Assembly (NCBI GenBank): GCA_000004985.1
Contig: GG738857.1
DNA from: Naegleria gruberi
Lineage: Eukaryota
Length of the DNA: 64,000 nt
Reading direction: 5' to 3' (one strand)
The position numbers and the translations under genes are program-made. Below the pieces are notes generated by a model. That model saw nothing but the letters and a program-made list of their open reading frames with translations. It was not told the DNA's origin and did not search any database. Positions 17,022 through 51,993 of this stretch are shown here, in pieces; position 1 is the stretch's first letter, and each line of letters begins with the position of its first letter.

Positions 17022-18554
17022 TTATAAACCTAAGAGTTTCTTGACTTCTGTAATCAATTTTGGATCACTGGATTGCAGAGCTTGCATACCTGGTCCAGAA
17101 GTAAATGTCTTGGCATCAGAGATGAGAGCTTGGGCAATTTCCTTAATTTCAGAGGAGCCAGATGTTGATGATTTGGCAATTCTGTACATGCTCAGAAGCA
17201 TCTTGTGGGCGACATCCTTACTCTTCTCTGCTGTAATGTATTCCAACATGGAGGAGAGTAATTGAATTTCTTCATCTGAGTTTTGGTGAGATAAATAGAG
17301 AGTGAGATTGCATGATAAACTGGCAGCAGTTAATCTGACACCTTCCAATTCTGAGCCCAACGATGTCGAAATGATATCAACAACTTTGGCTAATCTTGTT
17401 GAATCCTTGGTAATATATTTTACAGTGTCTGGTGTTAATGATTGTGCACTATAGTACTTGTCAAAAATGTTACAATACAATCTGAGAACCATCAATTGGG
17501 TTGGCATTGAACAGGAAGACCATTTAGAAACAAATCTCTCCTCAATAATATCCATCAATGCCTTGTGTTCACCAATAGTAATGGCCTTGGAAAACTTGCT
17601 TGTCAATACCAACAATCTGACCAAATCCAAAATTGGGAAGACTTCATTTTCCTTAGCTCCTCCAATTAATTTCTTCAACAATTCAAATGTTTCATTATTT
17701 ACAAGTGTGCTCTTGGTATCATCTTGTTGTGGTAATTGCAAGTATTGTTCCAATTGGTTCAAAACTCTAATATCTCCCTTCAATTCATCCAAAAGACTGG
17801 CCTGTGTTGTCTTTAACTTGGCAACAACTTGTGGCACATTGGATTTGTTATATTTGTAAATTTCAGCTGGATCATTATAGGTATCAATAGGTGGTGGAGT
17901 TGCTTGTGGAGTAGAATTAGAACCACCATAAGGATTATAATTTCCAGTATTCATTCCTCCCATGAATTGATTCATCATTTGTGACACCATTGGATTATTC
18001 ATCATTTGAGATAAAAATTGTGGATCCATCATATTGCCCATATTTCCCATATTTCCCAAACCACCAGGTAAACCTCCTTGTTGTTGTTGAGGGCTGGATG
18101 AACCACCCATCATGTTATCAATCATTGGTCTAACCATTTGTCCCAAAGGTGTTTCAAAGAATTCTCTTGGCAATCCTAAAATATCATCTGGAATATTCTT
18201 GCCCAAAAGGAAGTTTGAGCATTCATTGGAGAAATTATTACAATTATTTTCAAATAAATTATATTGATCCATTCTAAATCTCTCTGATCCGATAGCTTGA
18301 ACATATTCTTCAAAAAGTGGTTTTTGAATTTGAGTATCACCCAAATGAATTCTTCTCACAGGTTGTCCATACGGAGTAGTAAGAGGTTGCATCACTTGAA
18401 CACCTCCTCCGAAGAAGTACTCGCTACCATACACGACAATACTTGTATGCCAAATACCTGGAAAATGTTTACCAGTAAATTGTTGAGAAAATGTTGCTGC
18501 AAGACCCATGGAAAGATCATAGACATACAACTCGACTCGGAATGTTTGACTCAT
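17022..18554 (-). CDS. PPPDE (DeSI-type) thiol peptidase domain protein with Q/G/M-rich linker and C-terminal PUL/armadillo-like domain
   Basis: N-terminal PPPDE signature (VELYVYDLS..., HTSIVVYGSEYFFGGG, NNCNNFSN). C-terminal helical-repeat region resembles a PUL domain. ATG at 18554, TAA stop. Confidence 0.7.
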   Translation of the reverse strand: MSQTFRVELYVYDLSMGLAATFSQQFTGKHFPGIWHTSIVVYGSEYFFGGGVQVMQPLTTPYGQPVRRIHLGDTQIQKPLFEEYVQAIGSERFRMDQYNLFENNCNNFSNECSNFLLGKNIPDDILGLPREFFETPLGQMVRPMIDNMMGGSSSPQQQQGGLPGGLGNMGNMGNMMDPQFLSQMMNNPMVSQMMNQFMGGMNTGNYNPYGGSNSTPQATPPPIDTYNDPAEIYKYNKSNVPQVVAKLKTTQASLLDELKGDIRVLNQLEQYLQLPQQDDTKSTLVNNETFELLKKLIGGAKENEVFPILDLVRLLVLTSKFSKAITIGEHKALMDIIEERFVSKWSSCSMPTQLMVLRLYCNIFDKYYSAQSLTPDTVKYITKDSTRLAKVVDIISTSLGSELEGVRLTAASLSCNLTLYLSHQNSDEEIQLLSSMLEYITAEKSKDVAHKMLLSMYRIAKSSTSGSSEIKEIAQALISDAKTFTSGPGMQALQSSDPKLITEVKKLLGL

Positions 18555-25232: not shown

Positions 25233-28200
25233 ATGAAACACCACAACAAGGTCCTATTCACCACGATTTTATTGTGTTGCTTCTACTTTTATTGGAAATC
25301 ATCATTTGTTTCATCATCAATATTATCAACTGTATCACCTTCTTCTGGTTTTAATCCTCATCACCAAACACCCATTAACAGTAAAATACTAATACCAGAT
25401 ATTTATCGAGAATTTAGTGATGCACATAGAGAAGCTGCTGTAGCGGATTCACAATTTCCTTCTACTTTTGAATATTATCAAGAAGAACAACATTATGTAA
25501 ATAGTACCCTTGTAGATAACTTAAAGAAACGTTATGAACAGTTGGCACATGATCATGGCAGAAGAAGATCTTTGGAAGGTTCTAATGATGAAAGTAATTA
25601 TCTGGCATCAGAAGAATTGTGGACAGAATATATCAAGACGACTATTTATTTGAATTATACCTTCTACATGTCAGCGAATGGGGGTGGTAGTGCCGATCAA
25701 CCAAATTGTACAATGGAATTTCCTTGTGCAAGCATTGCTGATTTAATGAAAGGAATTGATAAGAGAGTGTTTGTCAAGTCGAATGAATACTTTCTCTACT
25801 TGTTCTCAATGAAGAGATTTATCATTGTTAATGTAGTTTTCATGGATGACATGCTGCAGTTGGAATGTGATTCTCCAAAAAACTCATTCCTTCGATTGCC
25901 AATTATGAATGTCATGTTCATGTTTAGATTTAGTAGTTTTAGTAATTTAGAGAGGAGGACAATTTCATGTGGTGAGAAACAGGGACTTTTATTCGATAGT
26001 ACTAGAAGAGACATTTTAATGATCTTGGTTTCAAACCTTAATTTACGATTTGTCTATTTTAGAAATGATTACTTTCTCAATTTTGGAATTCATCATAGCT
26101 CAAGTTTTGTACTTTTTGTTGTCAACGTGGATATACAAAACCCAAAACATCTAATTGTGGAATATTGTGATCTTGAGCAGTCAGCATTTGCTTACAGAAA
26201 ATCAGATCTTGCAGTATTTTCCTTTTCCAAATTCACATACTACAATACTATTAGTCTGTATGCAGCAGCAGATATTCAGATGGCTGTTTTGGAAGTGAGT
26301 GGTATTTTGAAAACTGACTTTTTGAATGTGCAACAATTCTTGCTTTATAGATCCAATTTCAAACGTCATTCAATCATTTTCTTTATTACAGGTAGTGGAA
26401 TTATTCATGTTGAAGATTGCCGTTTTGAAGATCAATCAGTTCAGAGTGTCATGTTTGATGTCACTAAAGGGCAAACTTTCCAATTTTTCAATAACTATGT
26501 GAAAGGAAATATTGTTGTCTTGGATGTTAAGGCTCAGACTCTTATATCAATTATTAATTCTACCTTCATTGAGAATGATATACCAACACTAAATAATTCA
26601 AAACGGTTCCAACTGTATCAGTCTTACAATTCTCCTGTAAATTTTAAAAGTAGTTTAATTCTTTCCATTCAAAATTCAACATTTGACAATAATTTTGGAG
26701 AGAAAGGAGCACATGCTTATGTACAAGATGTAATAGAAATACGTGTTGAAGGATCCAAGTTCTTGAATGGAAGAGGCAGTGCTTTGGTAATTGACACAAT
26801 GCCATCTTCTGACTTGTATAGATATTTAATCTTTGTTTCCAACTCTTTATTCGAAAATAATGAATCACCAGATTATGGTGGTGCTTTTAGAATCTTATAC
26901 TCAATTCAAGCAAACTTCATGAATTGTATCTTTAGAAATAATGTGGCTTATTATGCTGGTGGTGCTCTCAATTTTTTGTTGGCAAATGTGATTACTCTTA
27001 ATGGAACAATATTTGAAAGAAATAGGGCCTTATTTGGAGAAGAAACACCTGACAATGAGCTTTTTTATCGAGGTTCTGGTGGCGCAATTTCTATCTCTCG
27101 ATCACCTCAACCACTTAATATTAATGGTGCAACTTTCATTGAAAATGAAGCATATGCAGGAGGTGCCTTATTTTTCACTGGTGTTGGAGTTGATACTGTC
27201 TCAAATTGTTTATTCAGAAAGAATAGAGCTACGAATACAGGAGGGGCAATTTTCCATTTTGCACAACTCAATATGACACAGCCCAAGTTCAGTAATGTGA
27301 TATTTGATCAAAACAGTGCTGCAGTTTATGGTAATGACTTTTTCGCATCAGTCAATGAAATGATGAAGGAAGAAACTTACCTTTCCATCTATCCAGGACA
27401 AACAATTTTCATACCAATGACCACTTTTACAAATAATGTACAGGTGCCTTGCAATGTAGATCGTTTCGTTGTTGCTTCTGCAGAGTATCCAGATCTTTAT
27501 TTCCATGTTAAGGAATTGGCTGAGGGTTTAAATATTACCCTTTTAATTTTAAATGGTACACTGCCAGAGTATGCTGGAATAGCTTTGAATACCACAGTTA
27601 AAGTGGAACAAACCTATGAAAGTGGATGGTTTTCAGAGTTTACCATTCTTCCTTGTCCAGATGGATACGAGTACAAGTTCAGTAACAATTTTGGAGTTGC
27701 TGCCTATATGTGTGTATCTGGTAATGCCCTAACTTGGAAGGAAATTGTTGCTATTACTGTTCCAGCAGGTTTTGCATTCTTTATTATGGGAACTTTTTCT
27801 GGAATTTTTGTTCTTTTTATGTTTATGAAAATTGTGAGACGATTGAGAATTTTGTCAAGCAAAGAAAAAGCAGAAAAGGCAGTAGCTCAAAGAATTATTG
27901 ACAAGAGAATTGTTTTTGGAAGTGATTATGAGCCATCCAAATCTAATGACACCAATTATTTTGATACTCTTTCTGCACCATTGTTGGCTTCAAATGAAGT
28001 TGAACTGAAAATCAGCAGACGAGTACGAGATTTCCTTATTCCTATCGAAGCCATAGAAATCATCTCAAAGGTTGCTGAAGGTGGACAAGGTGTAGTTTAT
28101 GTTGCCCTCTTGTATGGAAAGACAAAGGTTGCTGTGAAATCTTTGAAAAAACTAATGAGTGATGGAAATGATGTTAATGATACAGATGACGAGTTTGAGA

Positions 28201-29018
28201 AGGAAGTCTCAATTTTATACAGTCTTAGACATCAAAATATTTTAAAGTTTTTTGGAATTGCATTGACAGAGGATAGCAAATACATGATTACTGAATATTT
28301 GGAGAATGGTTCACTGGAAAGAATGATTTATAAATTAAGAATTGGAAAGGCATCTCTCACATTAAAGCAAAAGCTAATCATCTTGCAAGATATTTGCTCT
28401 GGATTGGAATATTTACACTCTCTTGAACCACCAATAGTTCACAGAGATTTGAAACCAGGCAATGTCCTTTTTGATTCAGATTATAGATGTAAGATTTGTG
28501 ATTTTGGATTGAGTAGAGCTGTTGGTAATTTAAACACTAACAATTCAATGACCAGAGGAATAGGTACATTACTTTATTCAAGTCCAGAGAGTTGGACCTC
28601 TTCGACGAGTGATATTGGAAATTCACAGGACAAGATACTGAAAGCTACCAAGGGAGATGTCTACAGCTTTGGAATAATGATGCACGAGCTATTCTTTGAA
28701 TTATCTCCCTATTCACAATCTTCAAAAATTGGTAGCAATCTTACGGATGACCAAAACATGATTAATGTCCTAGCTCATGTTGCTAGAGGAAACAGACCTC
28801 TCATTCCATTCAAAAACGCAGATCAAGTTAGAGAATGGTTACAACTCTATCCTTTACAACCGTACACAGTGAGTATGAGTCTTTGTCAAATAGTATTGGA
28901 CTATTTCAAATTGACTGCTCAATGTTGGGATGAAAAGCCAGAAATGAGACCTTCAATCAAGGAAGTGGGTGATGAACTTAAAAGACTTTTATTTGAATTA
29001 TCAGCAAATTGTGAATAA
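25233..29018 (+). CDS. Receptor-like protein kinase: signal peptide, extracellular parallel beta-helix (Pmp-type GGA[ILV]/FxxN repeats), one TM helix, cytoplasmic Ser/Thr (TKL-like) kinase domain
   Basis: Repeated GGAFRI/GGALNF/GGAISI/GGALFF/GGAIFHF with FENN/FRNN/FERN/FIEN/FRKN/FDQN motifs. TM helix ITVPAGFAFFIMGTFSGIFVLFMFM. Kinase motifs VAVK, HRDLKPGNVLF, DFGLSR, SPE. 1261-aa intronless ORF, TAA stop. Confidence 0.8.
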   Translation: MKHHNKVLFTTILLCCFYFYWKSSFVSSSILSTVSPSSGFNPHHQTPINSKILIPDIYREFSDAHREAAVADSQFPSTFEYYQEEQHYVNSTLVDNLKKRYEQLAHDHGRRRSLEGSNDESNYLASEELWTEYIKTTIYLNYTFYMSANGGGSADQPNCTMEFPCASIADLMKGIDKRVFVKSNEYFLYLFSMKRFIIVNVVFMDDMLQLECDSPKNSFLRLPIMNVMFMFRFSSFSNLERRTISCGEKQGLLFDSTRRDILMILVSNLNLRFVYFRNDYFLNFGIHHSSSFVLFVVNVDIQNPKHLIVEYCDLEQSAFAYRKSDLAVFSFSKFTYYNTISLYAAADIQMAVLEVSGILKTDFLNVQQFLLYRSNFKRHSIIFFITGSGIIHVEDCRFEDQSVQSVMFDVTKGQTFQFFNNYVKGNIVVLDVKAQTLISIINSTFIENDIPTLNNSKRFQLYQSYNSPVNFKSSLILSIQNSTFDNNFGEKGAHAYVQDVIEIRVEGSKFLNGRGSALVIDTMPSSDLYRYLIFVSNSLFENNESPDYGGAFRILYSIQANFMNCIFRNNVAYYAGGALNFLLANVITLNGTIFERNRALFGEETPDNELFYRGSGGAISISRSPQPLNINGATFIENEAYAGGALFFTGVGVDTVSNCLFRKNRATNTGGAIFHFAQLNMTQPKFSNVIFDQNSAAVYGNDFFASVNEMMKEETYLSIYPGQTIFIPMTTFTNNVQVPCNVDRFVVASAEYPDLYFHVKELAEGLNITLLILNGTLPEYAGIALNTTVKVEQTYESGWFSEFTILPCPDGYEYKFSNNFGVAAYMCVSGNALTWKEIVAITVPAGFAFFIMGTFSGIFVLFMFMKIVRRLRILSSKEKAEKAVAQRIIDKRIVFGSDYEPSKSNDTNYFDTLSAPLLASNEVELKISRRVRDFLIPIEAIEIISKVAEGGQGVVYVALLYGKTKVAVKSLKKLMSDGNDVNDTDDEFEKEVSILYSLRHQNILKFFGIALTEDSKYMITEYLENGSLERMIYKLRIGKASLTLKQKLIILQDICSGLEYLHSLEPPIVHRDLKPGNVLFDSDYRCKICDFGLSRAVGNLNTNNSMTRGIGTLLYSSPESWTSSTSDIGNSQDKILKATKGDVYSFGIMMHELFFELSPYSQSSKIGSNLTDDQNMINVLAHVARGNRPLIPFKNADQVREWLQLYPLQPYTVSMSLCQIVLDYFKLTAQCWDEKPEMRPSIKEVGDELKRLLFELSANCE

Positions 29019-29096: not shown

Positions 29097-30782
29097 TTAT
29101 TTTGAGGTTAGTTTGCCCATTAGATATTCTAATGTGTGAGGAGAGAAGGTTTCTTCGTGAGAGTTTGGTTCAATGTACTCTGAATACATATTCTCTAGAA
29201 GATTGTAAATTTTTTGAACTGTTACATTATGCTTTTCACAAAATTCCAAAAAGTCTTTGAATTTTCTTGCCAGTTCAGTATTTTTGAAGGTATAATAATA
29301 CATTGGTTTTTCGCAATGGCAAGTGACAATTAATTGAATGATAAACTTGAGTTCGTGATCACTATTGAATGCTCCACCTCCCCAGTTACCTGTAGAAATA
29401 TTCGAATAGAAATTCAATCCATAATTCTTTCTAATAGAACAGAATGCAGAATAGGCCTTGATAATTTCTCTATCTATACAATCAATCTTCCACTGTTTCA
29501 ATTTTTCATTCGTATAGTAATATTTAGAATCGAATGCAACAATTTGTGATTTGAAGCAAAATAGATGTTCGCTTTCCTTCTCATAATTTCCATCAATAAA
29601 GTCTCCCTTATAGAGGAGTGATTTGGCATATCCTTGATGTGAACTAAACTGCTCTGTTCCACAAATTAATAATGACTCATTATTCGAAAGCTTTTCAACA
29701 ATCAACCTAGAGATGATACATTCAGGACTGAGTGCAAATCTAATTTCCTCCTGAACGGCTCCTCCTCTTAAAACTCCTCCTCCAATGTACTTGTTTGCAA
29801 AGTCACTGTGAATGGCATTTTCACAATCCTCAATTGATCCTTCTGGAAGAACAATCACTTGATTGTTTGATATTTCAACAGTTGATTGTTGAATTTGACA
29901 AATGACTTGATATGGCTCTACTTTCTTTCTAATAAATGTCACATAGCCAAATCTTTTAATTTCCTCAATTCCTCTCTCACATAATCTCTCAAAATAATGG
30001 ATAATCATCAAGAGTTTGGAGCTACTTGCAATGTATGGATTGATAAACAGAGTATCCATGTTAATACTTGTAATTTTCAAGGTTCCTTCCTTTACATCTC
30101 CCAATCTTGAAAATGTACAAAAGAAACTATTTGCCAATATACAAGCACATTCCAATTTAGTCAATTTCACAGCTCTTGATTCATTATTAATTGATGACTT
30201 GTTCAATTCCTCCAATATTGGCAGTAATCCTTCATTCAACACTATAGTTGACTGTCTCTGACATTCATGTTCATACAAATCACCAGCATACGATCCAAGA
30301 ATGCTCTCAGATTTCAAAACCAACTCAATGATGAATGGCAATGTTTCAGTAAAAAACTTTGGACGTCCTTCCCACTTTGCACTACTCTTCTCATCCAATA
30401 ACATACTCAATAGATTAATATCTTGAACTAGAACTGATTCCACTTGTTTCTTATCATGTGATTGATAGGAAATTTTCTGAATTTTCCTCACAATTGCAGC
30501 AAATTCAGCACTTGATGAAATTTCGCTCTCTTTCAAAATATTTGCAATTTCCGTCCATGAATTCTTCATCATGAAGGGAAATACAACATGTGCTGAAGAG
30601 GAAAAATTGTATTTCCCTTCCGAATTTGTAAATTTTTGTTTGGTAAATTGTGAATTATATTTCCTAGAATTTGCTTTGAATTTTTCTGATTTTTCTTCAT
30701 GTTCTTCTTGCTGTGTTGTGATCAAATCTGACAAATCGCGTTTCTTCTCCGAAGCATGATGCAACGACCTGAATAACGGCAT
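29097..30782 (-). CDS. Poly(ADP-ribose) glycohydrolase (PARG)
   Basis: PARG catalytic signature GGGVLRGGAVQEEIRF and TGNWGGGAFNSDHELKFIIQ. The track start at 30818 is GTG; the first ATG is 30782 (MPLFRSLHH...). TAA stop. Confidence 0.8.
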   Translation of the reverse strand: MPLFRSLHHASEKKRDLSDLITTQQEEHEEKSEKFKANSRKYNSQFTKQKFTNSEGKYNFSSSAHVVFPFMMKNSWTEIANILKESEISSSAEFAAIVRKIQKISYQSHDKKQVESVLVQDINLLSMLLDEKSSAKWEGRPKFFTETLPFIIELVLKSESILGSYAGDLYEHECQRQSTIVLNEGLLPILEELNKSSINNESRAVKLTKLECACILANSFFCTFSRLGDVKEGTLKITSINMDTLFINPYIASSSKLLMIIHYFERLCERGIEEIKRFGYVTFIRKKVEPYQVICQIQQSTVEISNNQVIVLPEGSIEDCENAIHSDFANKYIGGGVLRGGAVQEEIRFALSPECIISRLIVEKLSNNESLLICGTEQFSSHQGYAKSLLYKGDFIDGNYEKESEHLFCFKSQIVAFDSKYYYTNEKLKQWKIDCIDREIIKAYSAFCSIRKNYGLNFYSNISTGNWGGGAFNSDHELKFIIQLIVTCHCEKPMYYYTFKNTELARKFKDFLEFCEKHNVTVQKIYNLLENMYSEYIEPNSHEETFSPHTLEYLMGKLTSK

Positions 30783-30872: not shown

Positions 30873-32891
30873 TTATTTATCCCTATTCAATTTCAACAAT
30901 TCCAACTCTTTCAACTCAGAATCAATTTCCTCTCTCTTTGTATCAATCACTTTTTGCCTCATGAGAATTCTTCCCTTCTCATAATGTTGATCGTCACATC
31001 TTTTCAATTCATAGGTCCAACCAAACAATGACAATGAATAGATAATCCATTTGCCAGGATCGAAATGATACCAACGAACTCCATTTCTATAATCGTATGC
31101 AAATGTGTGATGGAAATTGTGATATCCCTCACCAAATGTTAACAAGCTCACAAAATATGAGTCACGAGCTGTGTGATCGTCGTTGAATGTGGCATCTCCC
31201 CATGAGTGAGCTAAACTATTGATAAAGAAGGTACAATGTTGGAGAATGGTTTTGGATAAAACTCCGGCAATGAGGAAACCACCTTTCCAATCTCCCCAAA
31301 AGTATCCTGCAACGAAAGTTGGACAAACGTAGCCAAAGAAGATGGCCAAATAGGGATAGTATTTGTGTTGGAAGACACAGTATGGATCACTTGTTAAATC
31401 GGGAATATTTGAGTGGTCAACTGGACGATTTTTCATTAACCAACCCATGTGAGCATGAAAGAATGAATTCTTGATATTGTAAGGATCTCTTTCAGTATCA
31501 ATGAACTTGTGATGTCTTCTGTGATCACTATATGAAATTTAGAAATAGTTTCGAATAGAATAAACTTACCTAGACCAACTAATGGCACTTCCTTGAAAGG
31601 CAGCACTTCCAATCAAGAGAAACGCCAAGCGAACAGGAAGATTAGCCTTACACGACAAGTGAGCAAAGAATCTATGATAACCAGTTGAAATTCCAATACC
31701 AGACGAATACATGGAAACAAAGCTCAATAAATATGTTTTCCAATTGAATGGACATGTGAAAATTCCATAAATGGAAACAATGATAGAGCCAATCAAGTAG
31801 ATGGAAATGATATAGTCAATATTACGTAAATCTAAATAATCGACAATATCTGAATAATCGTATTCATGTTGGTTTCCATTAAATGAGACGAAATCTAACC
31901 ATGTAATAGAATCAGATTTTCTACCACCAATCAATTCCAATTGCTTTCCAAACTTTTCTTCCAAAACCTTAACGCTTTCTCTCCATTTAGTTTGTGGAAC
32001 AGCAGCTGAGAGTTTACAAAGCAATTGATCTTTAACTTCAATTGTTTTGTAAAAGTGTCCATACCATTTAAAGGCAATTTTGTAATTATTCAAAGAATAA
32101 CTAGTCAAGAATTCGATAATCAAAGGAAGAGAAACAACACCAGTGAATTCTTCACCCTTCTTCTTATTGGCCTCGTTCATCTTCATCATGATTGAGTTGA
32201 TCAAATGGAAAGCCATCAATGGAGCCAAGTAATATTTAAACAAAGTCCAGAATCCACCAAACCAAACCATGAAATAGGTAAAGAAAGATGCGAATAGAAT
32301 CAAGACAATGGAATTGGTAATCTTATTGAAAGTATTTCCTTTTGTGTCAAAGTAAATATTGGTAACAATGCATTCCCAAATTGAGGTAAAGAACCAGAGA
32401 GGACTCTTTGCTAATTTGAGCATGGCACCAAACATGAAGTGTGGTTGTGAACTTTCTTGTGGATAGGTCTTGAGATATTTCACATTTTCGAATGGATACA
32501 ACAATGGCAACATGCAAACTAAACCAACCAATTGGTTAAGCCATTCAGGAAGTGTCTTGACATTGAAGAATTGATTAGTGGAACAACCATACGCAACAGA
32601 AACCAATCGACAAGCACAAAATCCCAAGAAAATCCAACAAATTGGAAGTAAATACCAAGGAATGTTTACAACAAACAAAACACCAATGAGAATTAAGAGT
32701 AAAGTCATGGACAATTGGATGGCAGCTTTGAAATTTGAAGGGGTAAAGCTACCTTCTACATGTTTCAGAGCTTCATTATGAAGAATGGAATCTTCACTAT
32801 TGGCAGCAAACTCAGTTTTTACACTGGCAGCTGTCAGAGAGGTAACAGATGACATTTTTTTGGGATGATATTGAGGATAATAATCACTCAT
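30873..32891 (-). CDS. Acyl-CoA delta-9 desaturase (stearoyl-CoA desaturase family) fused to a ~330-aa multi-TM N-terminal domain of unknown family; join(complement(31570..32891),complement(30873..31527))
   Basis: Three histidine boxes in SCD order: GYHRFFAH, WSSDHRRHHKF (restored by removing a 42-nt GTAAGT...TATAG intron at 31528-31569), HNFHHTFAYDY. The N-terminal ~330 aa upstream of desaturase TM1/TM2 form one continuous frame from ATG 32891. Confidence 0.75.
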
Positions 32892-33356: not shown

Positions 33357-33406
33357 NNNNNNNNNNNNNNNNNNNNNNNNNNNNNNNNNNNNNNNNNNNN
33401 NNNNNN
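33357..33406. other. Assembly gap (50 N)
   Basis: Run of N in the sequence. Confidence 0.99.
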
Positions 33407-33478: not shown

Positions 33479-34531
33479 ATGGAAAGACCCCAATGTGGAG
33501 GGTTTATAAATTTTGAAAATGTAAGCAATTTAACAAAACTAGAAGCAAAGAGTATTCCCAAATATATATATGCAAAATTCAACTCTTCTCTAAGGGAATT
33601 GCACCTGTCAATGTCATCTTTCAATCTAGACAATAATTTTGATAATTTGAAAAAATTGGAACTCATCAATGTTGGAAATTTATTAAGAGCCACCAGCACT
33701 ACATTTCCCTCCTTGGAATATGCCTATTGTACGAATTGTAATTTTTCCTTTAATGGAATTGAGTTTTTTTCCCAAAGCAAAAATTTGAAGAATTTGATTT
33801 TGAGGTGGTGTGATCTAGGAAAGGTGGAAACAGCCGAATTTCATTGTAGAGAATTGGAAGAATTGGATCTGACTACTGAGAATCCAATTAATCTTGATCT
33901 TTCGACATTGAGAGGACTAAACTTGAAGAAGCTCACAATTTATCCGAAATATATCAATAACCAAATAGATCTTTCCGTAATTGAGCAAATGGCAAGTTTG
34001 GAATATCTGAATTTAGGCGAATATTATGAAAATCTATCATTTTCCCAATTGACCAAATTGAATTATTTAGAATTTCGAAAAATTCGCATTTCAAAAAAGA
34101 ATCTAAAGGTAGAAAATTTGCTTTATGAAAATTTACTAAGAAATTGCGTCATTTACTTTAATAGTATAACCATTGAAGAGCATTGCATGCCATTTCCAAT
34201 TTTATTCGAAAGTGGAACTTTGGAAGGATCATTATTCGAATTAATTGCTTTGAAATTGAGAGAGCTCTGTATTGGTGTGAAAGGTGTGAAATTTGCCTTA
34301 ATGTCAGAGAAATTTATCTATGTTTCGTTTAATAGACAATCAAAGAATAAGCTATATTCGTATCCAAGTTTTATTCTATTCGAAACTGAAAGTCCGAACA
34401 GAATTTTGGAGCACAGAAGAAGTTTGGAAAAGAAACAAGAATTTTTTAATTTTACATCAAGTATCGAATATTTAATGCAACTGAAAAATTATTCTACTGT
34501 ACGAAATGGACGAAAGTGTGAAATTCAGTGA
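33479..34531 (+). CDS. LRR-like protein, paralog of the 35361-36497 gene
   Basis: Shares LELINVGN...FPSLEYAYCTNCNFSFNGIEFFSQSKNLKNLILRWCDL and the C-terminal ...RKCEIQ* with its paralog. Leucine-rich periodicity. The 5' end may be affected by the upstream gap. Confidence 0.5.
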   Translation: MERPQCGGFINFENVSNLTKLEAKSIPKYIYAKFNSSLRELHLSMSSFNLDNNFDNLKKLELINVGNLLRATSTTFPSLEYAYCTNCNFSFNGIEFFSQSKNLKNLILRWCDLGKVETAEFHCRELEELDLTTENPINLDLSTLRGLNLKKLTIYPKYINNQIDLSVIEQMASLEYLNLGEYYENLSFSQLTKLNYLEFRKIRISKKNLKVENLLYENLLRNCVIYFNSITIEEHCMPFPILFESGTLEGSLFELIALKLRELCIGVKGVKFALMSEKFIYVSFNRQSKNKLYSYPSFILFETESPNRILEHRRSLEKKQEFFNFTSSIEYLMQLKNYSTVRNGRKCEIQ

Positions 34532-43313: not shown

Positions 43314-44236
43314 NNNNNNNNNNNNNNNNNNNNNNNNNNNNNNNNNNNNNNNNNNNNNNNNNNNNNNNNNNNNNNNNNNNNNNNNNNNNNNNNNNNNNNN
43401 NNNNNNNNNNNNNNNNNNNNNNNNNNNNNNNNNNNNNNNNNNNNNNNNNNNNNNNNNNNNNNNNNNNNNNNNNNNNNNNNNNNNNNNNNNNNNNNNNNNN
43501 NNNNNNNNNNNNNNNNNNNNNNNNNNNNNNNNNNNNNNNNNNNNNNNNNNNNNNNNNNNNNNNNNNNNNNNNNNNNNNNNNNNNNNNNNNNNNNNNNNNN
43601 NNNNNNNNNNNNNNNNNNNNNNNNNNNNNNNNNNNNNNNNNNNNNNNNNNNNNNNNNNNNNNNNNNNNNNNNNNNNNNNNNNNNNNNNNNNNNNNNNNNN
43701 NNNNNNNNNNNNNNNNNNNNNNNNNNNNNNNNNNNNNNNNNNNNNNNNNNNNNNNNNNNNNNNNNNNNNNNNNNNNNNNNNNNNNNNNNNNNNNNNNNNN
43801 NNNNNNNNNNNNNNNNNNNNNNNNNNNNNNNNNNNNNNNNNNNNNNNNNNNNNNNNNNNNNNNNNNNNNNNNNNNNNNNNNNNNNNNNNNNNNNNNNNNN
43901 NNNNNNNNNNNNNNNNNNNNNNNNNNNNNNNNNNNNNNNNNNNNNNNNNNNNNNNNNNNNNNNNNNNNNNNNNNNNNNNNNNNNNNNNNNNNNNNNNNNN
44001 NNNNNNNNNNNNNNNNNNNNNNNNNNNNNNNNNNNNNNNNNNNNNNNNNNNNNNNNNNNNNNNNNNNNNNNNNNNNNNNNNNNNNNNNNNNNNNNNNNNN
44101 NNNNNNNNNNNNNNNNNNNNNNNNNNNNNNNNNNNNNNNNNNNNNNNNNNNNNNNNNNNNNNNNNNNNNNNNNNNNNNNNNNNNNNNNNNNNNNNNNNNN
44201 NNNNNNNNNNNNNNNNNNNNNNNNNNNNNNNNNNNN
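43314..44236. other. Assembly gap (923 N)
   Basis: Run of N. The track ORF 43309-44256 and the X-stretches are gap artefacts. Confidence 0.99.
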
Positions 44237-50828: not shown

Positions 50829-51993
50829 NNNNNNNNNNNNNNNNNNNNNNNNNNNNNNNNNNNNNNNNNNNNNNNNNNNNNNNNNNNNNNNNNNNNNNNN
50901 NNNNNNNNNNNNNNNNNNNNNNNNNNNNNNNNNNNNNNNNNNNNNNNNNNNNNNNNNNNNNNNNNNNNNNNNNNNNNNNNNNNNNNNNNNNNNNNNNNNN
51001 NNNNNNNNNNNNNNNNNNNNNNNNNNNNNNNNNNNNNNNNNNNNNNNNNNNNNNNNNNNNNNNNNNNNNNNNNNNNNNNNNNNNNNNNNNNNNNNNNNNN
51101 NNNNNNNNNNNNNNNNNNNNNNNNNNNNNNNNNNNNNNNNNNNNNNNNNNNNNNNNNNNNNNNNNNNNNNNNNNNNNNNNNNNNNNNNNNNNNNNNNNNN
51201 NNNNNNNNNNNNNNNNNNNNNNNNNNNNNNNNNNNNNNNNNNNNNNNNNNNNNNNNNNNNNNNNNNNNNNNNNNNNNNNNNNNNNNNNNNNNNNNNNNNN
51301 NNNNNNNNNNNNNNNNNNNNNNNNNNNNNNNNNNNNNNNNNNNNNNNNNNNNNNNNNNNNNNNNNNNNNNNNNNNNNNNNNNNNNNNNNNNNNNNNNNNN
51401 NNNNNNNNNNNNNNNNNNNNNNNNNNNNNNNNNNNNNNNNNNNNNNNNNNNNNNNNNNNNNNNNNNNNNNNNNNNNNNNNNNNNNNNNNNNNNNNNNNNN
51501 NNNNNNNNNNNNNNNNNNNNNNNNNNNNNNNNNNNNNNNNNNNNNNNNNNNNNNNNNNNNNNNNNNNNNNNNNNNNNNNNNNNNNNNNNNNNNNNNNNNN
51601 NNNNNNNNNNNNNNNNNNNNNNNNNNNNNNNNNNNNNNNNNNNNNNNNNNNNNNNNNNNNNNNNNNNNNNNNNNNNNNNNNNNNNNNNNNNNNNNNNNNN
51701 NNNNNNNNNNNNNNNNNNNNNNNNNNNNNNNNNNNNNNNNNNNNNNNNNNNNNNNNNNNNNNNNNNNNNNNNNNNNNNNNNNNNNNNNNNNNNNNNNNNN
51801 NNNNNNNNNNNNNNNNNNNNNNNNNNNNNNNNNNNNNNNNNNNNNNNNNNNNNNNNNNNNNNNNNNNNNNNNNNNNNNNNNNNNNNNNNNNNNNNNNNNN
51901 NNNNNNNNNNNNNNNNNNNNNNNNNNNNNNNNNNNNNNNNNNNNNNNNNNNNNNNNNNNNNNNNNNNNNNNNNNNNNNNNNNNNNNNNNNNNN
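50829..51993. other. Assembly gap (1165 N)
   Basis: Run of N. Track ORFs 50591-51997 and 50819-52015 are extended through N and are artefactual beyond the gap edges. Confidence 0.99.

What the first reader, a model, noticed from the sequence alone, without database searches (positions are those of the whole stretch)
30873..32891. Delta-9 acyl-CoA desaturase carried as the C-terminal half of a larger multi-TM fusion protein
The three histidine boxes of the stearoyl-CoA desaturase family are all present and in canonical order (GYHRFFAH; WSSDHRRHHKF after removing a 42-nt intron; HNFHHTFAYDY). Ahead of desaturase TM1/TM2 the reading frame continues uninterrupted for about 330 additional residues back to an ATG at 32891. 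That region contains at least four further hydrophobic helices and no motif I can assign, and it lacks the HPGG of a cytochrome b5. SCDs normally have only a short N-terminal tail. An N-terminal multi-pass domain fused to an SCD is therefore unusual and could represent a new regulatory or substrate-channelling module, or a gene fusion with an upstream membrane-protein gene.
Basis: partly seen in the sequence, partly recalled or inferred. Interest (0 to 1): 0.7.

Follow-up and report, generated by a model that had tools for sequence, protein, structure and literature searches.

The report
Dead desaturase domain fused to Δ9 desaturase
This Naegleria gruberi gene encodes a normal-looking Δ9 fatty-acid desaturase whose long N-terminal extension is a second, ω6/FAD6-like desaturase domain that has lost all its iron-binding histidines; the fusion is conserved across amoebae, including Dictyostelium's annotated Δ9 desaturase, and I found no description of it in the literature.

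Summary
A two-exon gene on the minus strand (30873-32891, with a 42-nt GT..AG intron at 31528-31569) encodes a 658-aa protein. It is identical to the Naegleria gruberi 'predicted protein' P0002.

The dead domain is under purifying selection (dN/dS ~0.16). A ~40-residue disordered linker joins it to the SCD domain.

The architecture is not an artefact and is not unique. It occurs in N. fowleri, N. lovaniensis, Willaertia, Dictyostelium discoideum (Q54IE9), other dictyostelids, Physarum and Stenamoeba, mostly with an extra C-terminal cytochrome b5 that the N. gruberi orthogroup lacks.

My best reading is that catalysis sits in the SCD half, and the dead FAD6-like half is a retained lipid-binding structural or regulatory partner. 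That role is inferred, not shown. I found no literature on the fusion.

The parts
30873..32891 (-). Whole coding region of the fusion gene (658 codons plus stop). Exon 1 is 31570-32891 and exon 2 is 30873-31527.
   Evidence: ORFs and sequence. Splice and translation. Identical to N. gruberi P0002 from M13 onward.
31528..31569 (-). 42-nt intron (GTAAGT...TAG) that splits codon 441, just upstream of SCD His box 2.
   Evidence: Removing it restores the frame and the conserved WSSDHRRHH motif seen in N. fowleri and N. lovaniensis.
32757..32891 (-). N-terminal tail, residues 1-45. It is poorly conserved and has low pLDDT. The NCBI model starts at M13 (window 32855).
   Evidence: An in-frame stop lies 16 codons upstream of M1.
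31950..32756 (-). Catalytically dead ω6/FAD6/DesA-like membrane desaturase domain, residues 46-314.
32577..32591 (-). Remnant of His box 1: H-D/E-C-G-H has become Y101-G-C103-S-T105. The cysteine is retained and both histidines are lost.
32457..32471 (-). Remnant of His box 2: H-N-x-H-H has become K141-T-Y-P144-Q145.
   Evidence: The alignment is less certain in this loop, but the segment contains no histidine at all.
32013..32087 (-). Remnant of His box 3. The H-x-x-H-H that precedes the conserved I-P-x-Y motif has become N269 ... C292-K293, with a Naegleria-specific insertion in between. The motif is followed by V-P299-Q-T-K.
31821..31949 (-). Inter-domain linker, residues 315-357. It is predicted disordered and evolves almost neutrally.
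   Evidence: pLDDT is 33-42. dN/dS is ~0.92. Length and sequence vary between species.
30990..31820 (-). Intact SCD-type (Δ9 'first') desaturase domain, residues 358-620. The coordinates include the intron.
31659..31676 (-). SCD His box 1, H406-R-F-F-A-H411.
31509..31523 (-). SCD His box 2, H443-R-R-H-H447.
31107..31121 (-). SCD His box 3, H577-N-F-H-H581.
30876..30989 (-). C-terminal long helix, residues 621-658. In paralogues and other species this helix leads into a fused cytochrome b5. Here the protein ends, with the stop codon at 30873-30875.
   Evidence: Alignment A1. AF2 helix 608-645 in P0002 numbering. No HPGG anywhere in the window.

Best explanation
SHOWN. The gene encodes a single polypeptide with two membrane-desaturase folds in tandem.
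- The C-terminal fold (residues ~358-620) is a complete SCD-type di-iron desaturase with every metal ligand present. I take it to be the only catalytic unit. By family inference it makes the first (Δ9-type) double bond in saturated acyl chains.
- The N-terminal fold (residues 46-314) descends from an ω6/Δ12 (FAD6/DesA-type) three-His-box desaturase. None of the 8 ligand histidines remains, and no carboxylates replace them, so it cannot hold a di-iron centre. It is a pseudo-enzyme domain.
- Its helical framework is conserved and under purifying selection.

INFERRED (topology). Both folds have cytosolic N- and C-termini. The ~40-residue disordered cytosolic linker therefore lets the two four-helix membrane domains sit side by side.

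INFERRED (mechanism, my best guess). The dead domain is retained as an intramolecular partner of the Δ9 domain, a covalent pseudo-heterodimer. It keeps the hydrophobic acyl-binding tunnel of its ancestors. It serves to stabilise or position the Δ9 domain and to bind or hand over lipid (substrate delivery, product removal, or sensing of membrane unsaturation), not to catalyse.

INFERRED (origin). The most economical origin is an ancestral tandem ω6-like/Δ9/cytochrome-b5 enzyme whose first domain decayed stepwise. Family members with 6/8, 3/8, 1/8 and 0/8 histidines all exist.

INFERRED (electrons). The N. gruberi orthogroup has lost the fused cytochrome b5, so electrons must come from a separate cytochrome b5 or reductase.
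For: Gene structure and identity.

Active SCD half:
- PDB SCD1 matches at E 1.7e-46 and 2.6e-45.
- Ligand histidines invariant in 76 homologues.
- dN/dS 0.091.

The N-terminal half is a desaturase homologue:
- An exhaustive phmmer search returns both fusion proteins and standalone HDCGH/HNxHH/HxPHH desaturases at E 1e-8 to 1e-4 against 1.8 billion sequences.
- Profile-profile comparison gives probability 100%, E 2.8e-46 across the whole desaturase length.
- The nearest live relatives are named ω6/Δ12 desaturase or chloroplastic FAD6 by their sources.
- The family profile hits 8xks_K by sequence at E 1e-26.

The N-terminal half is dead:
- The ligand table gives 8/8 histidines in 11 standalone enzymes and 0/8 in N. 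gruberi.
- Of the 11 columns conserved in live enzymes but lost in dead domains, 9 are histidines. The framework residues W79, P83, G90, C103, F108, N119, G123, G213, P224, P256 and P299 are kept.

The dead half is retained for a reason:
- dN/dS is 0.157 in the domain against ~0.92 in the linker.
- It is conserved from Heterolobosea to Amoebozoa.
- Some positions are conserved only in dead domains: L130, E135, W166, Y198, F200.

One transcript:
- Fused family members come from Trinity or transcript assemblies of Stenamoeba and Physarum.
- There is no in-frame ATG between residues 239 and 393, so an SCD-only isoform by internal initiation would lack TM1.

Precedents:
- Chlamydomonas FAD6a has only partly conserved His boxes and no iron density. 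It shows fatty-acid density in its tunnel and acts as an auxiliary membrane subunit of a complex (bioRxiv 10.1101/2024.09.02.610899).
- FAD2-FAD3 heterodimers channel intermediates (PMC6314118, citing Lou et al. 2014).
- The same dead domain is also fused in front of a cytochrome-b5 front-end desaturase (P0134). That fits a portable accessory module for desaturases.
Against: - No experiment or transcript data exist for N. gruberi itself.
- The functional role of the dead domain is inference only. I could not inspect the AF2 coordinates or PAE, so there is no evidence that the two domains actually contact each other (pTM only 0.65).
- No fused member with 8/8 histidines was found, so the 'ancestral bifunctional enzyme' scenario is unproven.
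- In a crude NJ tree the fused N-domains group together with the 6-His forms basal, but bootstrap support for monophyly is only 26/100.
- dS between the two Naegleria species is saturated (~3.2), so the dN/dS values are rough.
- Δ9 regiochemistry and the acyl-CoA versus acyl-lipid substrate are untested. The closest single-domain relatives of the SCD half in the database are bacterial.
Confidence: 0.6

Rival explanations
1. The N-terminal domain is an evolutionary relic with no function of its own. It is a decaying ω6-like desaturase half that is merely tolerated because it provides the promoter, the start codon and membrane insertion for the Δ9 half.
For: All catalytic histidines are gone. 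The N-domain is much less conserved than the SCD half: ~51% versus 81% identity between N. gruberi and N. lovaniensis. Naegleria-specific insertions occur in its loops.
Against: dN/dS is 0.157, against ~0.92 in the adjacent linker. The fold and many framework residues are retained across Heterolobosea and Amoebozoa. AF2 gives a confident desaturase fold. Some positions are conserved only in dead domains. The domain recurs in other fusion contexts.
Confidence: 0.12
2. The N-terminal domain is mainly a regulatory, turnover or targeting element. It would control ER retention or regulated degradation of the desaturase in response to lipid status, rather than taking part in substrate handling.
For: From general knowledge, not tested here: Δ9 desaturases are short-lived and tightly regulated, and the N-terminal segment of mammalian SCD1 carries a degradation signal. 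The domain sits N-terminal to different desaturase types. The linker is flexible.
Against: A 270-residue conserved four-TM fold is far more than a degron or targeting signal needs. Nothing in the sequence points to ubiquitination or sorting motifs. This reading overlaps with, and does not exclude, the lipid-sensing version of the main explanation.
Confidence: 0.15
3. The N-terminal domain is still an enzyme, a desaturase, hydroxylase or other lipid-modifying activity that uses non-histidine ligands or no metal. The protein would then be bifunctional.
For: The fold, the probable tunnel and an invariant cysteine (C103, the C of HDCGH) are conserved. Relatives with 6/8 histidines exist, such as Stenamoeba, and might retain activity.
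Against: In N. gruberi the eight ligand positions are Y, T, K, P, Q, N, C, K. There is no His, Asp or Glu set able to hold a di-iron site. A ninth conserved histidine is also lost. No known member of this superfamily works without the His-ligated di-metal centre (general knowledge).
Confidence: 0.04
4. Artefact: two neighbouring genes (a membrane protein and an SCD) are wrongly joined by assembly or by reading a chance open frame.
For: A 50-N assembly gap lies 466 bp upstream.
Against: A continuous 441-codon ORF spans the junction inside exon 1. The same junction is conserved in N. lovaniensis genomic DNA. It is also conserved in N. fowleri, Willaertia, dictyostelids, and Physarum and Stenamoeba transcripts. 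No in-frame ATG is available to start a separate SCD.
Confidence: 0.02

Closest known systems
Dictyostelium discoideum 'delta 9 fatty acid desaturase' (Q54IE9 / XP_636528.1, 701 aa) and its dictyostelid, Physarum, Willaertia and N. fowleri homologues
   Same: The architecture is the same: a dead ω6-like domain (0/8 His, 'GYACG' in place of HDCGH), a linker, then an intact SCD domain. Identity to the window protein is 37-57% over more than 90% of its length.
   Different: Most of these carry an additional C-terminal cytochrome b5 (HPGG). The N. gruberi, N. fowleri P0003 and N. lovaniensis orthogroup lacks it. Pfam and the database names recognise only the SCD and b5 parts. I found no paper describing the N-terminal domain.
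Mammalian stearoyl-CoA desaturase 1 (PDB 4YMK, 4ZYO)
   Different: SCD1 has only a short N-terminal tail and no second desaturase fold. The closest single-domain sequence relatives of the window's SCD half are bacterial, at 41-48% identity.
Fungal Ole1-type Δ9 desaturase (SCD with a C-terminal cytochrome b5)
   Same: Most members of the fusion family also end in a fused cytochrome b5 after the SCD domain.
   Different: Ole1 has no N-terminal dead desaturase domain (general knowledge). The window protein itself has no b5.
Chlamydomonas FAD6a / 'FADL' subunit of the Orf2971-FtsHi chloroplast import motor (PDB 8XKS chain K)
   Different: It is a separate plastid protein inside a protein-import complex and is not fused to a Δ9 desaturase. 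It retains some histidines, whereas the N. gruberi domain retains none.
ω6/Δ12 acyl-lipid desaturases of the FAD6/DesA type (HDCGH ... HNxHH/HDRHH ... HxPHH)
   Same: The N-domain is homologous over its full length and shares the helical framework and several motifs: PW..LP, C of HDCGH, N..VG, P.LYP, IP.Y.
   Different: All eight di-iron ligands are substituted, so it is not a functional member.
FAD2-FAD3 desaturase heterodimers that channel linoleate (Lou et al. 2014, as cited in PMC6314118)
   Same: This is a conceptual parallel: two different membrane desaturase folds associate so that lipid passes between them. Here the association would be made permanent by fusion (for the citation; the parallel is my inference).
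   Different: In plants both partners are active and non-covalently associated. Here one partner is catalytically dead, and channelling is unproven.

Membership tests
SCD-type ('first', Δ9) membrane acyl desaturase (C-terminal half) | Three His boxes HxxxxH / HxxHH / HxxHH in order, plus the additional TM4 histidine (N-S-x-x-H) | tested here: met
   H406/H411, H443/H446/H447, H577/H580/H581 and N544/H548 are present. These histidines are invariant or nearly invariant in 76 homologues.
SCD-type ('first', Δ9) membrane acyl desaturase (C-terminal half) | Significant sequence and fold similarity to solved SCD1 | tested here: met
   [not shown]
SCD-type ('first', Δ9) membrane acyl desaturase (C-terminal half) | Δ9 regioselectivity on saturated C16/C18 acyl-CoA | not testable with these tools
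   This needs heterologous expression and fatty-acid analysis. The family also contains Δ5 and Δ11 enzymes and acyl-lipid enzymes (general knowledge).
SCD-type ('first', Δ9) membrane acyl desaturase (C-terminal half) | Cytochrome b5 electron donor, either fused (Ole1-type) or free | tested here: not met
   A fused b5 is absent. There is no HPGG in any frame of the 64-kb window, and the protein ends after the post-SCD helix. A free b5 elsewhere in the genome could not be tested.
ω6/Δ12 FAD6/DesA-type three-His-box membrane desaturase (N-terminal half) | Full-length sequence homology to family members | tested here: met
   hhalign gives probability 100%, E 2.8e-46, query 46-314 against template 27-318. 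phmmer hits standalone HDCGH desaturases. For the N. gruberi sequence on its own, Pfam PF00487 scores only E 0.0055, below the Pfam cutoff. 12 of 18 family N-domains hit PF00487.
ω6/Δ12 FAD6/DesA-type three-His-box membrane desaturase (N-terminal half) | Desaturase fold (four TM helices plus a cytosolic helical cap) | tested here: met
   [not shown]
ω6/Δ12 FAD6/DesA-type three-His-box membrane desaturase (N-terminal half) | Eight conserved histidines in three boxes that ligate the di-iron centre | tested here: not met
   0/8 in N. gruberi (Y101, T105, K141, P144, Q145, N269, C292, K293), against 8/8 in 11 standalone relatives. It is therefore a homologue but not a functional member: a pseudo-desaturase.
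Tandem dead-desaturase/SCD fusion family of Amoebozoa and Heterolobosea (unnamed) | Collinear N-terminal degenerate ω6-like domain, variable linker and intact SCD domain in one polypeptide | tested here: met
   Alignment A1 covers 10 full-length homologues at 37-64% identity. The ligand table covers 23 fused members.
Tandem dead-desaturase/SCD fusion family of Amoebozoa and Heterolobosea (unnamed) | C-terminal fused cytochrome b5 (present in most members) | tested here: not met
   It is absent from N. gruberi, N. fowleri P0003 and N. lovaniensis P0001. It is present in N. fowleri P0004, Willaertia and the dictyostelids.

The most novel reading that the evidence does not exclude
The histidine-less FAD6-like domain is a portable pseudo-enzyme module that controls membrane desaturases. 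It would keep the acyl-binding tunnel and use it either to feed or extract lipid for the neighbouring catalytic domain, or to sense membrane unsaturation and allosterically tune Δ9 activity. The same module is found in front of an SCD (this gene, and Dictyostelium Q54IE9), in front of a cytochrome-b5 front-end desaturase (P0134) and in other contexts (P0153). Its nearest solved relative (Chlamydomonas FAD6a) is a lipid-binding, apparently iron-free subunit of a larger complex. If this reading is right, it defines a new class of regulatory or chaperone-like partners for lipid desaturation in protists.
Probability: 0.25. Interest if true: 0.75.

Novelty: new variant of a known kind. Interest (0 to 1): 0.55.

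Why it matters
Δ9 desaturation is the committed and tightly regulated step that sets membrane fluidity. How the enzyme obtains its substrate, and how it is tuned to membrane state, is still debated.

This family includes the protein annotated as 'delta 9 fatty acid desaturase' in the genetically tractable Dictyostelium discoideum, and two paralogues in the pathogen Naegleria fowleri. In it the enzyme is permanently coupled to a conserved, catalytically dead copy of a different desaturase class.

That makes it a natural experiment on desaturase-desaturase association, with one partner reduced to a non-catalytic role. The fusion can be dissected by simple deletion or complementation experiments.

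It also matters for annotation. Domain databases see only one desaturase domain in most members, and genome-based inference of PUFA capacity could miscount the dead ω6-like domain as a Δ12 desaturase.

Because animals and fungi lack this module, it could in principle be a selective feature of Naegleria lipid metabolism.

Tried and rejected
- **Word-indexed homologue search.** The search with the N-terminal 357 aa returned only one hit, which wrongly suggested extreme rarity. The exhaustive phmmer search and the full-length search showed a sizeable family. The profile version of the indexed search also under-recovered.
- **Exact-sequence look-ups.** The N. gruberi scaffold context and deposited exon structure therefore could not be fetched. 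Identity with P0002 was checked by sequence instead.
- **NCBIfam.** It gave no specific subfamily for the nearest live relatives, only weak sub-cutoff hits to DesA, DesB and GntB models, and nothing for the N-domain.
- **afdb50 fold library.** It was unavailable, so structural neighbours were taken from PDB only.
- **Phylogeny.** The first attempt timed out and the second crashed. The final crude NJ tree gives only weak support (26/100) for a single origin of the fused N-domains, so I do not claim one.
- **Cytochrome b5 elsewhere.** I looked for a b5 exon upstream, downstream or anywhere in the window, and for a second paralogue in the window. Neither was found.
- **Internal-start SCD isoform.** Rejected for lack of any in-frame ATG between residues 239 and 393.
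- **Literature.** Seven searches found no description of the fusion or of a dead desaturase domain fused to an SCD. The Aurantiochytrium 'non-canonical Δ9 desaturase' paper (PMC8390409) concerns a Δ12-like enzyme that became a Δ9 enzyme, not a fusion. The N. fowleri omics papers mention a 'fatty acid desaturase' but do not say which one.
Full report
**1. What is in the sequence**

On the minus strand a 441-codon ORF runs from the ATG at 32891 to 31566, and a second ORF ends at 30873. A 42-nt intron (GTAAGT...TAG, window 31528-31569) joins them in frame and gives a 658-aa product.

From M13 onward the product is identical to the 646-aa 'predicted protein [Naegleria gruberi]' P0002. The window is therefore N. 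gruberi DNA (GC 34%), and the deposited model uses the same splice.

An in-frame stop lies 16 codons upstream of M1. The N. fowleri orthologue starts at the equivalent place, so no further 5' coding exon is needed.

**2. The C-terminal half is an ordinary, intact SCD-type desaturase**

- Residues 361-618 match human and mouse SCD1 (PDB 4ZYO, 4YMK) at E 1.7e-46 and 2.6e-45.
- Pfam FA_desaturase covers 384-603 at E 1.9e-16.
- In an alignment of 76 homologues the eight box histidines are invariant, and H548 is nearly invariant.
- Against N. lovaniensis the domain is 81% identical, with dN/dS ~0.09.

Nothing suggests loss of function. Δ9 regiochemistry and the acyl-CoA substrate are family-level inferences that I could not test.

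**3. The N-terminal half is a dead ω6/FAD6-like desaturase domain**

Homology:
- On its own the N. gruberi segment gives only a sub-threshold Pfam FA_desaturase hit (E 0.0055, residues 78-238).
- An exhaustive phmmer search of 1.84 billion representatives with residues 1-357 found 62 proteins at E ≤ 1e-3. They fall into two groups. One group is long proteins that also carry an SCD domain and usually a C-terminal HPGG. The other is ~340-470-aa standalone desaturases with HDCGH / HNxHH or HDRHH / HxPHH boxes.
- Source databases call those standalone proteins 'omega-6 fatty acid desaturase (delta-12 desaturase)' or 'Omega-6 fatty acid desaturase, chloroplastic'.
- A profile of 16 histidine-poor N-domains aligned by hhalign to a profile of 11 standalone enzymes gives probability 100% and E 2.8e-46. 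The match covers 243 columns, query 46-314 against template 27-318, which is the whole desaturase length.

Loss of the metal site:
- At the eight ligand columns the standalone enzymes have 8/8 histidines. N. gruberi has Y101, T105, K141, P144, Q145, N269, C292 and K293, which is 0/8.
- A column-by-column comparison finds 11 columns that are at least 80% conserved in live enzymes but lost in the dead domains. Nine of the 11 are histidines.
- The framework residues W79, P83, G90, C103 (the Cys of HDCGH), F108, N119, G123, G213, P224, P256 and P299 are kept.
- L130, E135, W166, Y198 and F200 are conserved only in the dead domains.

Structure:
- An AF2 model of residues 1-357 has core pLDDT above 90 and pTM 0.71.
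- The family profile also hits 8xks_K by sequence at E 1e-26.
- 8xks_K is Chlamydomonas FAD6a, an ω6 FAD6-like protein. Its authors report only partly conserved His boxes, no iron density and a fatty-acid-shaped density in the tunnel. It is an auxiliary membrane subunit of the Orf2971-FtsHi import motor (bioRxiv 10.1101/2024.09.02.610899).

**4. Domain organisation and selection**

- Hydropathy and the AF2 helices place a TM hairpin at ~53-104 and a long hydrophobic helical segment at ~187-241 in the N-domain. The SCD helices start at ~360.
- Residues ~315-357 have pLDDT 33-42 and vary in length between species.
- Nei-Gojobori estimates against the N. lovaniensis genomic locus give dN/dS 0.157 for the N-domain, ~0.92 for the linker and 0.091 for the SCD domain. 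dS is saturated, so these values are approximate.
- The dead domain is therefore constrained, while the linker is not.
- Both fold types have cytosolic N- and C-termini (general knowledge of SCD1 and FAD2-type topology), so a tandem arrangement with a cytosolic linker is topologically consistent.

**5. It is a conserved family, not an artefact**

Full-length homologues at 37-64% identity over more than 90% of the length:
- N. fowleri P0003 (706 aa, no b5)
- N. fowleri P0004 (715 aa, with b5)
- N. lovaniensis P0001
- Willaertia magna P0005
- Heterostelium, Acytostelium, Synstelium and Polysphondylium
- Dictyostelium discoideum 'delta 9 fatty acid desaturase' Q54IE9 / XP_636528.1

Transcript-derived members include Stenamoeba stenopodia (Trinity) and Physarum polycephalum. 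In relatives, then, both halves lie on one mRNA.

The N. lovaniensis gene model omits part of the N-domain, but the genome encodes all of it, and the fusion junction lies in a continuous frame there.

In N. gruberi there is no in-frame ATG between residues 239 and 393. That argues against an SCD-only product by internal initiation.

Most members end in a fused cytochrome b5. The N. gruberi / N. fowleri P0003 / N. lovaniensis orthogroup does not, and HPGG occurs nowhere in the window.

**6. A decay series**

Fused N-domains retain different numbers of the eight histidines:
- 6/8 in Stenamoeba P0182, P0183 and P0170, where box 3 HxxHH has become L/QxxHY
- 3/8 in P0137
- 1/8 in Physarum, P0163 and three other members (N. 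fowleri P0003, P0008, P0123)
- 0/8 in N. gruberi, N. fowleri P0004, Willaertia and the dictyostelids

No fused member with 8/8 was seen.

In a crude NJ tree the fused N-domains group next to FAD6-like enzymes, with the 6-His forms basal. Bootstrap support for monophyly is only 26/100.

A single ancient fusion followed by stepwise loss of the metal site is the simplest reading, but it is not demonstrated.

**7. How it most likely works**

Shown: there is one intact di-iron desaturase fold and one iron-less desaturase fold in one chain, and the iron-less fold is conserved and constrained.

Inferred: the SCD half carries out the Δ9-type desaturation, with electrons from a separate cytochrome b5 in N. 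gruberi. The N-domain acts as a non-catalytic, probably lipid-binding partner. It would be a covalent analogue of desaturase heterodimers such as FAD2-FAD3 (PMC6314118 citing Lou et al. 2014). It would stabilise, position or gate the catalytic half, or sense membrane lipid.

Two observations support this by analogy:
- FAD6a is an apparently iron-free, fatty-acid-binding structural subunit.
- The same dead domain sits in front of a cytochrome-b5 front-end desaturase (P0134: HPGG, HDAMH, QIEHH) and in front of an unrelated C-terminal region (P0153).

I put ~0.9 on the anatomical statements and ~0.4-0.5 on the partner or lipid-handling role. The overall confidence is 0.6.

The rivals are a functionless relic, a pure turnover or targeting element, residual non-canonical catalysis, and an artefact. 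They are listed with their tests.

**8. Comparison with what is known, and novelty**

- The C-terminal half is a member of the SCD family. All testable defining features are met except a fused b5.
- The N-terminal half is a homologue of FAD6/DesA-type ω6 desaturases but fails their defining feature, the eight ligand histidines. It should not be filed as a desaturase.
- The protein and its relatives are already in public databases, where they are annotated only as a Δ9 desaturase or as 'fatty acid desaturase domain-containing'.
- Seven full-text searches found no description of the N-terminal pseudo-desaturase domain or of this tandem architecture. The library does not cover most subscription journals, so prior description cannot be excluded.
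- I rate it a new variant of a known kind, with moderate interest (0.55). It is a clear, conserved pseudo-enzyme domain attached to a central lipid enzyme in tractable organisms, but its function is unproven.

Noticed in passing
P0134 (682 aa; ENA and Tara/MERC metatranscriptome members) and P0160: The same histidine-less ω6-like domain is fused N-terminally to a cytochrome b5 (HPGG) plus a front-end-type desaturase (HDAMH ... QIEHH). This suggests the dead domain is a portable module that is not restricted to SCD partners.
   Followed up: partly
P0153 (644 aa) and P0180 (454 aa), from Logan assemblies: The dead domain (24% identity to window residues 47-237, E 1e-13) is followed by a C-terminal region with no Pfam hit and no SCD motifs. 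This is another context for the module.
   Followed up: partly
L001:10001-12337 (N. lovaniensis PYSW02000026.1): The deposited gene model P0001 (610 aa) is mis-spliced. It skips ~60 residues of the N-domain (NSIVLYVF...MKMNE) and 19 residues of the SCD domain (CAFQHKYYPWFAIFTGYIV) that the genome encodes in other frames.
   Followed up: yes
window 32855-32891: The NCBI N. gruberi model P0002 starts at the second ATG (M13), not at the first in-frame ATG at 32891. Which one is used is unknown, and the first 45 residues are poorly conserved.
   Followed up: partly
one search hit list (N. fowleri P0003 and P0004): N. fowleri has two paralogues of the fusion, one without and one with a C-terminal cytochrome b5. 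No N. gruberi orthologue of the b5-bearing paralogue appeared among the hits, and none is in this window. It may be lost or unannotated.
   Followed up: partly
[not shown]
   Followed up: no
P0176 (Pseudomonas protegens, 659 aa, 115 cluster members): This is a live 8-His ω6/Δ12-like desaturase fused to a C-terminal α/β-hydrolase domain, and it is widespread in P. protegens and P. piscis. It is an unrelated but curious desaturase-hydrolase fusion.
   Followed up: no
window 29097-30782 (-): A poly(ADP-ribose) glycohydrolase gene (PARG_cat_N plus PARG_cat_C, E 6.9e-68) starts only ~90 bp downstream of the desaturase stop codon on the same strand.
   Followed up: partly
window 25233-29018 (+): This is a 1261-aa ORF with a C-terminal protein kinase domain (E ~1e-42) and a weak right-handed beta-helix region. 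It looks like a receptor-like kinase.
   Followed up: no
window 33357-33406, 43314-44236, 50829-51993: There are three runs of N (50, 923 and 1165 bases), which are assembly gaps. The first lies 466 bp upstream of the desaturase start, in the intergenic region before a leucine-rich-repeat-like ORF (33479-34531, +) that has no Pfam hit.
   Followed up: partly
window 17022-18554 (-): This ORF has PPPDE peptidase (Peptidase_C97) and PUL domains. It is an ordinary eukaryotic deSUMOylase or deubiquitinase-like gene.
   Followed up: no
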